From Malacoraja senta (lineage: Eukaryota), in NCBI GenBank assembly GCA_038087875.1, contig CM075989.1, positions 20,028,001-20,092,000 on the forward strand: DNA of 64,000 nt, given 5' to 3'. How positions within the stretch are numbered: position 1 is the first letter of the stretch; each line of letters starts with the position of its first letter. Positions 3,321 through 59,700 of this stretch are shown one piece after another. The notes under the pieces were generated by a model. The model was given only the letters and a program-made list of their open reading frames with translations. It ran no database searches and was not told the origin of the DNA. The translations under genes and the position numbers were made by a program.

Positions 3321-4360
3321 TGATCCCTTCTGCCTATACCTGTTCCATGCCTCCATTATCCTGACCAGAGCCTCAATCTCTCTGGTCATCAAGCCTCCTT
3401 ATGCCCACCTGTCTTGCCCTTCATTCTACATGAACATGCGTGTCCTGAACTCTTGTCATCACACTTTTAAGAGCATCCTACTTTCCGGTCCTTTGCAAAC
3501 AAACAACCTACTCCAATCAAGTTTAGCAAGTTCCTGTCTAATACAATCAAACTTGGCCTAGCTTGAATTCCGAATTTTAACTTGGGGCCCGCCCTGTCTT
3601 TATCCATAACTATTTTAAAGCTGATAGAACAGCGGTTGCTGAAGACAGACACAAAGTGTTGGAGTAGCTCAGCGGGACAGGCAGCATCTCTGGAGGGAAG
3701 GAATGGGTGACGTCTCGGGTCGAGACCTGTCTTCAGACTGAGAGTCAGGGGAGTGGGAGACACAGAGATATGGTCGGGGAAGTGTGAAAACATAGATCAA
3801 AGGGCTCGATCATCAAGGAAATGTAGAATGGTACATTGTTGATCCCAAAGGGTTCCTCCACAGACACTTCAGTCCCTTCCCTTCCTAATTTACCAAGAGT
3901 CAATAAAGCTTTGCCCTCTCCAGTGTAGGGCCCTCTACATATTGCCTGAGGAAACTGTACTGAACACATTTGACTAATTCCACCCCGTCTAAGCCCTGGG
4001 CACTATGACAGTCCCAGTCTATATTGGGAAAGTTAAAATGCCTCAATATAACAACCCTATTAGTCTTGCAGCTGTTTGCAATCTCCCAGCATATATATAT
4101 ATATATTAATTCCCATTCACTCCCAATAAGATGCCCATCTCCTTTTTATTTCTCAGTTCTACCCCCATATGGCCTCTCTGGACAAACCATGAGTAATTAT
4201 ACCTACATTCTAAAAGATAAAACGCAGAAAAACAGGACATTAGTCCAAATATATAATTAAGACCATAAACCCAAGACCATAGTAGTGCTAGAGTTGGGCG
4301 AGATAGTATTTTGTTGTCAAAGTTGGATTAGCGTTGTGCACGTTGGTTCAAGCACCTGCT

Positions 4361-4895
4361 AGTTTAGTTTAGTTTAGAAATACAGCGCGGAAACAGGCCC
4401 TTCGACCCACCGAGTCCACGCCGACCAGCGATCCCCGCACACTAACACTATCCTACACACGCAAGGCACAATTTACAATTTGACCAAGCCAATCAACATG
4501 CAAACCTGCGCGTCTTTCGATCCTGTTGGAGATCCCGGAGAAAATCCAAGCAGGTCACGGGGAGAACGTACAAACTCCGTACAGACAAGCACCCGTAGTC
4601 AGGATCGAACGTAGGTCTCTGGCGCTGTAAAGGGCCTGTCCCACTTTCACGTCCTAATTCACGACCCTTTTTTACTCGTGGACATTTTTCATCATGCTAG
4701 AAAAACGCCCCGACCTACTTGATGCCACGAGTACCTACGACTAGCATCACGGCCTGCTACGACCTCCTACGACCTCGTGACGACCATGCTGAGAGTATGA
4801 GTCAAGGGCAAACTCGGCAGAGGTCGTGAATTAGGTTGTGAAAGTGGGACAGGCCCTTTAGGCCGCAACTCTACCACTGCTCCACCGTGCTGCCT
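4361..4895 (-). mobile_element. tRNA-derived V-SINE (HE1-like), interrupted by a MITE
   Basis: (CTAAA)n tail, CR1-like 3' end, A and B boxes. Confidence 0.85.
4631..4857. mobile_element. PIF/Harbinger-type MITE inside the V-SINE
   Basis: TIR AGGGCCTGTCCCACTTTCAC; flanks TAA / TTA. Confidence 0.85.
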
Positions 4896-5169
4896 TGTAG
4901 TTGTAGGAAAATATATCTTCCTGATCCTGGTGGTGTTGGACATCAAGCTTCTGTACCTCCTGCCTGACAGTAGCAGTGAGGAGAGAGCAGGGTGGTGGAG
5001 ATCCTTGATGGTCGATGCCACCATCTTGGGGCAGCGCCTCATGTTGCTGCTCTTGATGGAGGGGCGAGTGATGGACCGGCCCGAGTTCCCCACTCACTGC
5101 AGCCTCGTGTGTGTTAGAACTGCCGTACGATGCCCTTTCACTGAAATATTTTCCGTCGCCTTACGACAG

Positions 5170-5399
5170 GTGTCCGTTACAAAGATCTGGTGGTCGGCAT
5201 TCCCAAGGAAATTTTCAAGAATGAGAAAAGGGTGGCGGTTTCTCCAGCGGGTGTCCAAGCCCTGGTCAAGCAAGGCTTCACTGTCAAAGTGGAAACAACA
5301 GCTGGAGATGGTGCCAAGTTCTCCGATGACCAATACAGAGAGGCTGGGGCCATTATCAATAATACAAAAGATGTCTTTGGATCTGATATTGTCCTAAAG
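5170..5399 (+). CDS. NNT: NNT exon A (230 nt): (G)[25 protein letters not shown]...SDIVLK
   Basis: cag|GT acceptor, AAG|gtttgt donor; start of domain I. Confidence 0.96.
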
Positions 5400-56659: not shown

Positions 56660-56771
56660 ACATCGAGACAAAAAATTAATGTTAAAACTGAAAAAATCAA
56701 CTTGCTTCCAGAATTTCACGGTTTGAAGACTACAGAGACTAACAGAATGCATAATCCAGGAGAAATATGAA

Positions 56772-56777
56772 AATAAA
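56772..56777 (+). terminator. Candidate polyadenylation signal of NNT
   Basis: AATAAA about 112 nt after the stop codon, followed by a T/GT-rich tract. Confidence 0.6.
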
Positions 56778-59700
56778 TATTTTACTGTATTATTTGCATT
56801 CAGTTTATCTGTTTGTTATTCCTATTGCTTTTTGTTGGTTAGTTCCGGTCAGGAGTCTTTCACCAAATCGCAGTGATCCAATTCTAGATTTGATCACTGA
56901 TTGCTGGTATGTAGGGGACTTCAAGTTGGCTTGGAAAAGAAGGGCATGGGGGGCTGTTTGTTTGATTAGAACAAGTAGAAGTGTATGTCTAGGAAAGACC
57001 TGCAGATGCAGGTTTAAATCAAGGGTAGACACAAAATGCTGGAGTAACTCAGCGGGACAGGCAGCGTCTCCAGAGAGAAGGAATGGGTGACTTTTCGGGT
57101 CGAGACCCTTCTTCAGACTGAAACTCATGGGTGTATGTCTGTACCTCTGTCCCTGGCTTGAATTTTTCTTTTCATCTTCAACCAATCCTTTCATTTTCTT
57201 CTGGGGGGAAAAATTGGGGATAATGAATTAAAATGAGGCGAATGAAAAGGAACTTATTTTTATGCCAAGTTGATCAGAAAGCTTTACAAATCTGCATTAA
57301 TTGGTTTGAAACCAGTGTTATATTTTGGCTTAGATGGAATCAAATATTTAGTTTTGAACGACCAGGAATGAGTACCACATTGGAATCAAGTTCTGTCTGT
57401 TGGAGTAGAACGTAAAAAGCAGAGTGTCGCTGTGTCCCCTCAAACCTGCCCCTCTATTCAGTAAGATCATGTCTGACCTGCCCATACCGTTTCCAATCCC
57501 TTGCAACATCTGTGTTGGCCCAGTCAACACAGAGAATCTCGTCCCTCTGGAAAGAAATTTCCCCTCATACTTGGCAGGCCTTGCCCCACCCCCACCTTTC
57601 TTCCATCTGGCTGAAGAAGGGACCTGGCCCAAAACGCCAGCTATCCATGTCCTCCAGAGATGCTGCCTGACCCGCCTCCAGCTTCTGCAGTTCCTTGTGT
57701 CTTCTCGTTGTAATTCAACCCCTTATGACACTAATTCTGCACCATCTTACTCGGGGAGCAATGGCTCGCATGTAGTAACTCACACCAGACTCGTGATTTT
57801 TACTGATTCCAGAGAGGGGGGAGGGCTCATTCCTGTTGGAGGCAATGTGATTAAGCAGAATGTATGATGATGGTGTAAGTGAACGGGAGATTAATACAGA
57901 CAGAACAGGAATTCCAGGAGGGGAACGCAACAGTTAGTAGTTGCTCAGCAGAAAGGAACAATATTATTAACAACCATCACTTGTGTGACCAGCCTATAGT
58001 GCCCTGCAAGGATTTGGCAACTCTTTAATTATTGATGCAAACTAATTTGCAAAACTGACGTTAGATAAAAGATGCTTAATAAATGCCTTTCTGATCCAAA
58101 AATCCCCAAAGTGGTTTAATGCCATCTAAGTACTATTGAAGGCTTTGTCCCACCCCACCTCTCTTTTCCAGCTTTCTCCACCCTTACTATCAGTCTGAAG
58201 AAAGGTCCAGACCCGAAACATCGTCTGTCCATTCCCTCCGCAGATGCTGCCTGGCCTGCTGAGTTCCTCCAGTACTTTGCGTTTGGCTCTAGATTCCAAC
58301 ATCTGCAGCTCTCTGCGTCCCCAATTGCAATGTTCACGGCAAACGTCCGACAAACAGCAATGTGAGAATCTCCAGATAAACTCTCTTATTTTAGCGATAA
58401 TTTGAGGGAGACATGGACCAGAAGGCCACCTGCTTCCCTTTACTATAGCACCATGGGATCTATTACATCGCCTGAGATGGTGTCATAGCTCACTGTTTGC
58501 ATGCTGGCACATTTCACAGTAATCGTATCTCTTACTTGTGTACAGGAGTTGTCAGCTTAGACATTATGCACTCGGGTCTCTGCAGTGAGATTTGAACTCA
58601 ATGCCTTTTAGGAACCCAAGAAGCAAGAATGATTTCAACTGAGCCATGCCTGACACGCATTGGTAGGTAAGTCTGTCAAAACATGGGGTTATGTTTAAGA
58701 TCTATGTTCAAAAATTTAGGTTAACCAATGTTAAATCACAAAAAGGGCTCGTGTTCATGGAACTTTAGGAGACTTAAGTTATATAAAAGCCAATGTCATA
58801 GTTTTTAACCCTCCCTTTGGTGTTGATATTAACAATGCCAACTATGAGTGCAACTGATATTAGCTTCATGCTATAAAGTATGAAAATAGAGAAATTGCTG
58901 TTAATTTATTTTTAATTATGAAGTAGAGATTTGAACGGCATTTTGAAGGAGAGTTCTTGTCATTTTGTGGGGCGGGCTTCAATAGAGGTGAATTGTGAAG
59001 ATATTAGTTCTCTACATCAGCAGAACCAGAACATTATGTGACAGTGTGTCGAAAAATAGTCAAAACATGGTGGAAAATAATGGACTGAAAAGAACAGATT
59101 TATAGATTTGTACTTAAAAGTTGGCTTTTGGAACAATTAACATCGTTTTTCATTGTAAATGGACTTCTTGAACAGACTTTGAAAATGTGCTTCCATATTG
59201 TATTTTCAATGTGAATGAGCTAATATTAATTACAGAAAAACTATATCAATATTTTTTGCTGTCATCATTATAACTTAAGCTAAGGAAAATTTATTGAGCA
59301 TGGACTAGCTTGATAAATAGTTTCAGCTCAAAAGAGCTTCATTTCATGCAAGACTATAACTACAAAGATATTATGTGACTAAAACAAAGCCAAGCAGATG
59401 GCCCACATTGCTCGAAATTAATTCACTCCATGACTCATCAGTGCAATTGTTTTGCATTAAGCTCTGTTTAAAATTAAAATGGTCTGGAGATTGCAGCTAA
59501 ACACAACAGAACAGCGGTTAATGCTTACTATTCCTAAAAAGTTAATTGATGAACAAGAAAGACTTCATTATGACGACTTGTTTATAACAGTCCTTCTAAG
59601 TCAATTCAACTGGATTGAAGGCACAGGGAACTGCAGATGCTGGTTGACAAGAAAATACTCGAGAAGGGTCTCTGCCTCAGAGGGCGGTGGAGGCAGGTTC

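What the first reader, a model, noticed from the sequence alone, without database searches (positions are those of the whole stretch)
3640..58310. Family of short, independently mobile, hammerhead-bearing hairpin elements derived from Penelope ends
Seen: more than 20 copies of a 100-230 bp element built around CTGAAGA-A-GGGT-CTCG-ACCC-GAAA-CG-TC. Plus-strand examples: 10813, 13333, 17983, 24719, 27105, 41794, 53649, 58195. Minus-strand examples: 3710, 19808, 23158, 38678, 47140, 54997, 55457, 57089. Many are head-to-head inverted duplications. At least eight have their own 10-17 bp flanking direct repeats: 16518/16716 AAAGGTAAAAGGAAGGT, 19736/19971 TTATTAATAATG, 24617/24852 GTGGTTGAGG, 27084/27233 ACAATAGCTG, 38843/38989 GTTGTGTTAAATATT, 47060/47163 TCTTGCATCGC, 55344/55496 TACAGAGAAG, 56981/57131 GTGTATGTCT. 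Established: CUGANGA/GAAA/UH is the hammerhead core, and Penelope-like elements carry minimal hammerheads whose palindromic stem III (ACGU) works by dimerisation. Inference: these are ORF-less, SINE-sized ribozyme retroelements (or extreme 5'-truncation/inversion products) mobilised by a Penelope RT/GIY-YIG. Their density here is about one per 3 kb.
Basis: partly seen in the sequence, partly recalled or inferred. Interest (0 to 1): 0.78.

Follow-up and report, generated by a model that had tools for sequence, protein, structure and literature searches.

The report
Short Penelope retrotransposon ends with hammerheads
These abundant short repeats are the hammerhead-bearing ends of a known class of jumping gene (Penelope-like elements), mostly dead and not a separate family, although their sharply shared starting point may mark where the parent element's RNA begins.

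Summary
The unit is the 3' end (pLTR) of a Penelope-like element with C-terminal GIY-YIG endonuclease (Neptune type): at 13005-13463 endonuclease, UTR and unit are contiguous. Head-to-head copies, 10-17 bp TSDs and a 30-40 nt tail on one arm only (9 of 9 pairs) are published PLE hallmarks. The minimal hammerhead is real by covariation with invertebrate relatives, but only 1 of 27 arms keeps all features, no copy starts at the cleavage site, and short copies interleave with long ones in a tree, so a separate retrozyme/SINE family is not supported. The one less ordinary feature: 5' ends pile up at the 5' edge of the hammerhead (15 of 28 non-inverted insertions within 12 nt), next to Inr/TATA-like motifs; I infer run-off cDNAs of the RNA leader (about 45%). 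The scan reported similar elements before in other shark genomes.

The parts
13005..13223 (+). C-terminal part of PLE GIY-YIG endonuclease with stop codon (one frameshift near 13089)
   Evidence: tblastn 49-57% identity to P0001/P0002, E 4e-14 to 5e-16; blastn to 36186-36405
13224..13330 (+). Pyrimidine-rich spacer (pLTR upstream part) ending in an Inr-like TCAGT; degenerate TATA-like hexamer 36 nt before the core
   Evidence: sequence; motif positions; promoter role inferred
13331..13463 (+). Reference unit (positions 1-133) attached to the endonuclease: hammerhead core 13333-13360, predicted cut after 13360, short end near 13423-13428, tail to 13463
35822..36406 (+). Longest PLE coding remnant: linker with degenerate Cys motif plus GIY-YIG domain, two in-frame stops
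   Evidence: 45% identity to P0001, E 3e-35
36432..36483 (+). Weak remnant of unit positions 69-123 just after the endonuclease remnant
   Evidence: nhmmer E 0.007
6435..6694 (+). Decayed endonuclease remnant; its UTR is interrupted by later insertions and the unit follows at 7761-7855 (link inferred)
7733..7855 (+). UTR end plus unit without tail
25002..25509 (+). Endonuclease end 25002-25086, UTR, interposed SINE 25241-25417, unit 25421-25509 (link inferred)
3611..3785 (-). Unit with at least 46 nt of upstream UTR
10716..10906 (.). Head-to-head pair; arms look like different subfamilies; plus arm carries 27 nt UTR; ends 124 and 96; no TSD found
16518..16732 (.). Head-to-head pair with 17-bp TSD; ends 97 and 131
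17867..18173 (.). Head-to-head pair, plus arm split by a later insertion; ends 132 and 93
19736..19982 (.). Head-to-head pair with 12-bp TSD; ends 96 and 133
24617..24861 (.). Head-to-head pair with 10-bp TSD, junction centred on the TCAG-T-CTGA palindrome; ends 96 and 133
27084..27242 (+). Solo unit 1-133 with 10-bp TSD
37431..37673 (+). Partial head-to-tail duplication; first copy has a ~60-nt poly-C run inside stem II
38364..38565 (.).
38610..38816 (.). Head-to-head pair joined through stem II arms; ends 98 and 129
38843..39003 (.). Head-to-head pair with 15-bp TSD, lacking the 5' half of the core; ends 96 and 132
41666..41886 (.). Head-to-head pair whose arms are each other's closest relatives; ends 129 and 97
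47060..47173 (-). Solo unit 7-98 without tail, 11-bp TSD
55344..55505 (-). Solo unit 1-133 with 10-bp TSD; the only arm with core, 4-bp stem II and ACGU all intact; antisense to NNT
56981..57140 (-). Solo unit with 10-bp TSD; sister of the endonuclease-linked copy 13331 in the tree (support 0.74)
57570..57719 (+). Unit with about 41 nt upstream UTR
58131..58317 (+). Unit of a second subfamily with about 62 nt upstream UTR
7888..56650 (+). Host context: exons of NAD(P) transhydrogenase (NNT) spread over this span; most copies are intronic (end coordinate approximate)
   Evidence: PF05222 and PF02233 hits; peptide motifs at 8146, 20274, 45005, 47703, 56543

Best explanation
The repeats are direct retrotransposition products of autonomous Neptune-type Penelope-like elements, not a self-standing family. 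Shown: the unit is the last ~133 nt of the element (the hammerhead-bearing pLTR end), it has two 3' ends (about 91-98 and 123-134), TSDs, and head-to-head pairs with a tail on one arm only. From the literature: PLE protein nicks both target strands and starts reverse transcription at two internal sites 30-40 nt apart, downstream of the hammerhead, without needing ribozyme cleavage (PMC11167929). Inferred (about 45% on its own): because the pLTR end is also the 5' leader of the next ORF, and transcription starts at the Inr-like TCAGT at the hammerhead's 5' edge, priming at the leader's own start sites gives a 95-133 nt cDNA that runs off the RNA 5' end; it is joined to the target by microhomology (solo copy) or pairs with itself or a second cDNA through the unit's palindromes (head-to-head copy). 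Longer read-through RNAs give the minority of copies that reach into UTR and endonuclease. After insertion the hammerhead decays neutrally; it matters, if at all, in master elements and as a dimer or protein-assisted ribozyme.
For: Endonuclease-UTR-unit contiguity at 13005-13463 and three further endonuclease remnants followed by unit sequence. Homologues are RT + GIY-YIG ORFs with a CX2-5CxxC linker. 3' ends: 16 of 45 at 91-98, 26 of 45 at 123-134; 9 of 9 inverted pairs with both ends readable have exactly one tail, P about 0.001 if independent. 5' ends: 32 of 56 arms, and 15 of 28 non-inverted insertions, at -2..+9; none at 22-35. Raw WGS reads: depth 194k at the core and 361k at positions 62-79 versus 35k over the endonuclease; 16,472 loose ends with 0.30 agreement at position 1; 23.5k and 25.4k at positions 93 and 97. 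8 UTR-bearing arms are scattered among 38 arms in the tree. In a metagenome relative (L023) the repeat ends 82 nt after the core and ORF homology starts 161 nt after it. TATA lies 36-38 nt before the core in 4 of 13 relatives and nowhere else in the 55-nt windows except an overlapping -34.
Against: No RT remnant and no full pLTR-ORF-pLTR copy in the window; no genome is held, so the parent was not seen. Tree supports are low on ~100-nt sequences. The coarse read-depth curve alone is also near a steep geometric truncation (0.54 over ~55 nt inside the unit), and UTR divergence between subfamilies inflates the step and the loose ends at 13328. 5' boundaries were partly set by hand. TATA is absent in 9 of 13 relatives and in 2 of 4 window UTRs, only degenerate in the other 2, and the window was chosen after seeing the data. 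Only one opposite-strand joint at the 5' edge (35 reads) was among the listed joints; 2313 joints were not shown. No TSS data.
Confidence: 0.72

Rival explanations
1. A distinct non-autonomous family: short units are transcribed (own promoter remnant or host introns) and remobilised in trans by PLE protein, SINE-fashion, with fixed ends inherited from master copies.
For: Sharp 5' boundary and 5.6-10 fold excess over the endonuclease region; own TSDs; pLTR sequences suffice in cis for mobilisation in trans in a rotifer (PMC3846280, passages); non-autonomous PLE derivatives exist (PMC8557442 passages; bioRxiv 10.64898/2026.07.22.740005).
Against: Short and UTR-bearing copies interleave in at least three subfamilies; inverted junctions and extra 5' bases differ between loci except where they sit on the unit's own palindrome; solo copies lack the upstream TATA-like region; RNA read through from host introns would carry variable upstream flank, not a fixed 5' end.
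Confidence: 0.17
2. Plain 5' truncation of long RNAs with a local hotspot: RT copies full-length RNA from the 3' pLTR but drops off or folds back at the TCAG-T-CTGA palindrome or on entering the C-rich UTR; no transcription start is involved. (This differs from the best explanation only in the cause of the 5' boundary.)
For: At least 3 inverted junctions (24717, 38468, 41794) centre on that palindrome; 9 of 56 arms extend upstream by 25 to more than 300 nt; depth falls steeply everywhere along the element.
Against: Solo copies with no fold-back share the same boundary (15 of 28); two invertebrate copies also start 3-4 nt before the core although their upstream sequence is unrelated (L046, L028); TATA spacing in relatives.
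Confidence: 0.3
3. Non-LTR retrozyme: units are cut out by the hammerhead, circularised and reinserted.
For: Real minimal hammerhead; sizes in the retrozyme range; a few partial head-to-tail arrangements (37505/37636, 54872-55095).
Against: 0 of 56 arms start at or near position 31 and no listed loose end lies at 13361; no tandem of two complete hammerheads; 1 of 27 arms fully intact; stem II probability 0.00-0.04 in five whole units, and the hammerhead-like two-copy fold scores -12.7 against -23.3 kcal/mol for the best fold; head-to-head transcripts form hairpins of -86 to -171 kcal/mol that would bury the one sense copy.
Confidence: 0.04

Closest known systems
Canonical EN+ Penelope-like elements, Neptune clade (Craig et al. 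PMC8557442; Arkhipova et al. PMC3846280)
   Same: C-terminal GIY-YIG, Cys linker in homologues, hammerhead in pLTR, heavy 5' truncation, inverted 5'-truncated copy, palindromic head-to-head junctions, 30-40 nt tail at one end, TSDs of about 8-10 bp, TATA/Inr-like motifs in pLTR.
   Different: Here the bulk of insertions are only 95-230 bp, share one 5' boundary at the hammerhead edge and reach about 100-186 arms per Mb in the read set; the passages I read describe truncation as frequent but not as a fixed class. TSDs run to 17 bp.
Minimal hammerheads of metazoan PLEs (Cervera and de la Pena, PMC4209133)
   Same: CUGANGA, extra base before stem II, G10.1-C11.1, palindromic 15.2-16.2, no stem III; most motifs dispersed as singles and some as opposite-strand pairs 100-700 bp apart.
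   Different: Stem I is only 2 bp in the skate-like copies (third pair unpaired in all 5 aligned window copies); chondrichthyans are not named in the parts I read.
PAc Poseidon element of Anolis (Frangieh et al., PMC11167929)
   Same: Two internal RT start sites flanking the tail; main start 111-118 nt after the start of stem II (here stem II starts at 11 and tails end at 123-134); insertion independent of hammerhead cleavage.
   Different: Different clade; PAc ORF starts at stem II, whereas no ATG lies there in this unit and the Neptune relative L023 starts its ORF about 160 nt downstream.
Non-LTR retrozymes (PMC7229834; bioRxiv 10.64898/2026.07.22.740005)
   Same: ORF-less, small, type I hammerhead, pLTR-related, large TSDs, monomers dispersed.
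   Different: Retrozymes are head-to-tail arrays with at least two complete hammerheads; these are solo or head-to-head, with minimal and mostly broken cores and ends set away from the cleavage site.

Membership tests
EN+ Penelope-like element (Neptune type) | C-terminal GIY-YIG endonuclease contiguous with the repeat end | tested here: met
   13005-13463
EN+ Penelope-like element (Neptune type) | Telomerase-like RT in the same ORF | tested here: inconclusive
   No RT remnant in the window by tblastn with 10 of 52 proteins; present in homologues P0008, P0010, P0013
EN+ Penelope-like element (Neptune type) | CX2-5CxxC linker between RT and EN | tested here: inconclusive
   Complete in 10 of 10 homologues examined, degenerate in the 35822-36403 remnant; clade link from PMC8557442
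EN+ Penelope-like element (Neptune type) | Placement in the Neptune clade by RT phylogeny with named references | not tested
   No named Neptune references were fetched
EN+ Penelope-like element (Neptune type) | Inverted 5'-truncated copy, 30-40 nt tail at one end, TSD | tested here: met
   13 inverted loci, 9 of 9 with one tail, 9 TSDs
EN+ Penelope-like element (Neptune type) | Partial tandem pLTR-ORF-pLTR full-length copy | not testable with these tools
   No genome held; seen only in relative L023
Minimal type I hammerhead ribozyme | Conserved core with covarying stems I and II | tested here: met
   16 sequences: 7 of 8 pairs with two-sided change, 89.8% cells paired, 0 of 500 shuffles, slid controls 28-55%; the 11 relatives were picked with a hammerhead pattern, so stem II pairing is partly built in, stem I is not
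Minimal type I hammerhead ribozyme | Self-cleavage as dimer or with protein | not testable with these tools
   Folding does not favour the active fold
Minimal type I hammerhead ribozyme | Match to an Rfam hammerhead family | tested here: not met
Non-LTR retrozyme | Head-to-tail array with at least two complete hammerheads | tested here: not met
   (window only)
Non-LTR retrozyme | Unit boundaries set by the cleavage site | tested here: not met
   0 of 56 arms start at 22-35
Non-LTR retrozyme | Abundant circular RNA | not testable with these tools
   Only contigs of runs guessed to be RNA were available
SINE-like independent family | tRNA-derived head | tested here: not met
   ARAGORN's single hit (39333-39407) is outside every unit; A/B boxes, 5S and 7SL heads were not scanned separately
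SINE-like independent family | Own lineage apart from the autonomous partner | tested here: inconclusive
   UTR-bearing arms interleave with short arms, which argues against, but supports are low

The most novel reading that the evidence does not exclude
The short copies are integrated 'strong-stop' cDNAs of Penelope-like elements. Transcription starts at the hammerhead's 5' edge, RT primes 95-133 nt inside the leader and runs to the cap; cleavage of the downstream hammerhead would leave positions 0-30 as a terminal repeat on the RNA, allowing a retrovirus-like strand transfer to the 3' end that builds the pLTR-ORF-pLTR form. Failed transfers give solo copies, and pairing of the two cDNAs primed from the two nicked strands gives head-to-head copies with one tail. 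This would give the PLE hammerhead a defined job and explain tandem, inverted and tail structures in one cycle; the ~10^2 arms per Mb in these genomes would be a natural read-out of the intermediates.
Probability: 0.12. Interest if true: 0.75.

Novelty: new member of a known kind. Interest (0 to 1): 0.3.

Why it matters
How Penelope-like elements make their tandem and inverted ends, and what their hammerhead is for, remain open (PMC8557442, PMC11167929). A genome with 100-186 arms per Mb, two sharp 3' ends and one sharp 5' end is good material to test those steps by counting junctions. It also means that about 4% of DNA reads in the read set carry this element and that introns such as those of NNT hold many long hairpins, candidates for ADAR editing or small-RNA production (not tested). 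As a claim of a new ribozyme-driven mobile family it does not stand.

Tried and rejected
Own-genome search: none held. Exact 28-nt pattern in metagenome contigs: 0 matches. PLE alignment in viral contigs: 35 pattern matches, none confirmed. Rfam: no hammerhead model matches. Folding of five window stretches: no significant stability (z 0.94 to -1.21) and no hammerhead fold. Better conservation of the core among inserted copies: non-CpG mismatch 16 of 306 versus 198 of 2360, P=0.057; polymorphic columns 0 of 9 versus 20 of 104, P=0.36; not significant, and the core G in a CpG decays like other CpGs. Strand bias of core-intact arms relative to NNT: 6 plus, 6 minus, no signal. The polypyrimidine-CAG before the core as a used 3' splice site: rejected because solo copies share no 5' exon (loose-end agreement 0.30); an unused or retained intron is not excluded. 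Two-template origin of inverted arms: 2 of 13 pairs are each other's closest relatives, the other 11 are not clearly closer than other copies, and one or two look like different subfamilies; undecided. RNA-guess contigs X15 and X18 hold the unit but cannot show strand, start or cleavage. Lunse et al. 2017 is not held; I saw it only as cited in PMC6765202. Sequence look-up among earlier scan findings returned nothing.
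Full report
Setting. The window is vertebrate DNA: ORF pieces match NAD(P) transhydrogenase domains PF05222 and PF02233 and exon motifs run from 8146 to 56543 on the plus strand, so most copies lie in NNT introns. 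The closest named homologues of a coding remnant come from Mobula, Hypanus, Leucoraja and Amblyraja, so the genome is probably a skate or ray (inference). No assembly is held.

Observation. A profile from 9 copies gives 60 hits and none on the reversed window. After joining copies split by later insertions I count 56 arms (boundaries partly set by hand) in about 43 insertions, one per 1.5 kb. All 8 stated direct repeats are present; with 38364/38555 there are 9 TSDs of 10-17 bp, against 0.7% expected per locus. Thirteen loci are head-to-head.

What the unit is. At 13005-13463 the end of a GIY-YIG endonuclease, its stop, a 107-nt pyrimidine-rich spacer and a whole unit are contiguous. Three more endonuclease remnants (6435, 25002, 35822-36406) are followed by unit sequence, two of them across later insertions. 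The remnants match 750-1000 aa RT + GIY-YIG proteins with a CX2-5CxxC linker, the mark of the Neptune/Nematis type (PMC8557442); I built no RT tree, and no RT remnant lies in the window. Among 80 metagenome loci of this protein family, a simple pattern finds a minimal hammerhead in 31, in most about 90-160 nt after the endonuclease end. In L023 the terminal repeat ends 82 nt after the core and ORF homology begins 161 nt after it, so in that relative the unit-equivalent is the 5' leader of the ORF.

3' ends. Of 45 readable ends, 16 fall at unit positions 91-98 and 26 at 123-134. All 9 inverted pairs with both ends readable have one of each (P about 0.001); 4 pairs were left out because an end is interrupted or unclear. 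This is the published 30-40 nt tail at one end (PMC8557442, PMC3846280), which in the Anolis element corresponds to two internal RT start sites (PMC11167929). An invertebrate family shows the same two classes at about +80 to +99 and +145 to +150 from the core.

5' ends. 32 of 56 arms and 15 of 28 non-inverted insertions start at -2..+9; 9 arms extend into UTR or endonuclease; none starts at 22-35, where hammerhead cleavage (after position 30) would put them. In 1,938 Mb of raw WGS reads from run X21 (coded organism, probably the same or a close species since the unique flanks have depth about 2), 516,082 of 12,836,656 reads lie on the 540-nt reference; depth is 35k over the endonuclease, 10k in the UTR, 194k at the core, 361k at positions 62-79 and 70k in the tail, or 18, 5, 100, 186 and 36 per Mb. 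Loose ends with unrelated flanks pile up at position 1 (16,472 reads) and at 93 and 97. Against this: UTR divergence inflates the step, the 25,363 loose ends at 13328 are largely another UTR variant, the coarse curve alone is not far from steep geometric truncation, and few fold-back joints were listed (2313 joints not shown).

Cause of the 5' boundary. The core is preceded by TCAGT, which fits the initiator consensus (recalled), and PLE promoters are known to lie in the pLTR with Inr and TATA- or DPE-like motifs (PMC2377424, PMC3846280). TATA lies 36-38 nt before the core in 4 of 13 relatives (two of them related; P about 0.0008 for 3 of 12, window chosen afterwards), and a degenerate form lies at -36 in 2 of 4 window UTRs. 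Two invertebrate copies start 3-4 nt before the core. I therefore favour run-off of RT at the RNA 5' end, but the same stretch is a palindrome on which at least three inverted junctions centre, so a fold-back hotspot is a live rival. No TSS data were available.

The hammerhead. Across 5 window copies and 11 relatives, 7 of 8 pairs change on both sides, including C3-G8 to U-A, with 0 of 500 shuffles as high (stem II pairing was part of the search pattern, stem I was not). The motif is thus real in master lineages. In the window it is decaying: of 27 arms spanning it, 12 keep the core, 12 a 4-bp stem II, 9 the ACGU palindrome, 1 all three. Better conservation of the core among copies is not significant (P=0.057). 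Stem I is 2 bp, stem II has probability 0.04 or less in five whole units, and inverted loci fold into long hairpins. Published PLE minimal hammerheads cleave poorly and only as dimers or with protein (PMC4209133, PMC11167929).

Independent family? In a tree of 38 of the 60 hits (those spanning positions 25-85), 8 UTR-bearing arms are scattered among short ones in at least three groups; 13331 is sister to solo 57118 and 10811 to solo 27103 (supports 0.74, 0.86; most other nodes weak). Junctions differ between loci. Complete head-to-tail arrays, which define retrozymes (bioRxiv 10.64898/2026.07.22.740005, PMC7229834), are absent. Each short copy is a real insertion, but there is no sign that short copies beget short copies.

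Comparison and novelty. Truncation, inverted copies with palindromic junctions, tails, TSDs, solo pLTRs and dispersed single or opposite-strand minimal hammerheads are all described for PLEs, and Penelope-like expansion in shark introns is reported (bioRxiv 10.1101/443036). I did not find a description of a fixed 5' boundary at the hammerhead edge or of strong-stop products in eight full-text searches; subscription papers, Repbase and Dfam were not searchable, and bioRxiv supplements are closed, so family tables of the retrozyme preprint, which includes one chondrichthyan, may already list this unit. Two earlier scan notes report the same kind of element in shark genomes; they agree with my reading, which was fixed before I saw them, and are not independent evidence.

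Papers seen: PMC4209133 parts 1-2 of 4; bioRxiv 10.64898/2026.07.22.740005 parts 1-3 of 5; PMC11167929 parts 1-2 of 4; passages only of PMC8557442, PMC3846280, PMC2377424, PMC6765202, PMC7229834, PMC8969392, bioRxiv 10.1101/443036 (68), PMC6155905. No supplements were read. Lunse et al. was seen only as a citation.

Verdict. Real and abundant, of a known kind: Neptune-type Penelope ends with a minimal hammerhead. Interest 0.3, resting on the sharp 5' boundary and its use as a test of the PLE cycle.

Noticed in passing
window 37445-37508: A run of about 60 C inside stem II of a unit, within a partial head-to-tail duplication; expansion or assembly artefact.
   Followed up: no
window 14079-14661 and 43329-43939; 1951-2448; 18200-18517: GC-rich repeats that begin with related terminal sequence and pair with each other in the self-comparison; look like small DNA-transposon-type elements with terminal inverted repeats (impression, not tested).
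   Followed up: no
window 39333-39407 (repeat 39331-39679, partner 26503-26861): tRNA-Ala-like head called by ARAGORN on a two-copy repeat, probably a tRNA-derived SINE.
   Followed up: no
window, about 25 copies, e.g. 11301-11613, 24108-24411, 36674-36974: A second very abundant ~300-nt repeat resembling the HE1 SINE of elasmobranchs (name recalled); it interrupts several Penelope copies.
   Followed up: no
window 7198-7725 (minus): Uninterrupted 175-codon frame with a PF09004 match, probably the 3' end of a young LINE, inserted within a Penelope UTR.
   Followed up: partly
window 5400-6345: About 950 nt of (GT)n/(CA)n-type microsatellite directly before a Penelope endonuclease remnant at 6435; microsatellite targeting is reported for Neptune elements.
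   Followed up: no
L069, L070, L034: Relatives carry the U3-A8 hammerhead variant in place of C3-G8.
   Followed up: partly
L012:126: A longer hammerhead with extended stems just upstream of a PLE ORF, unlike the minimal form.
   Followed up: no
P0006, P0007: Public ray and skate gene models named mucin-2 and DCC contain translated pieces of this Penelope family, likely annotation carry-over or exonisation.
   Followed up: no
window 10716-10906 and 38373-38544: Head-to-head arms that look like different subfamilies, which would mean two RNA templates in one insertion, or adjacent insertions.
   Followed up: partly
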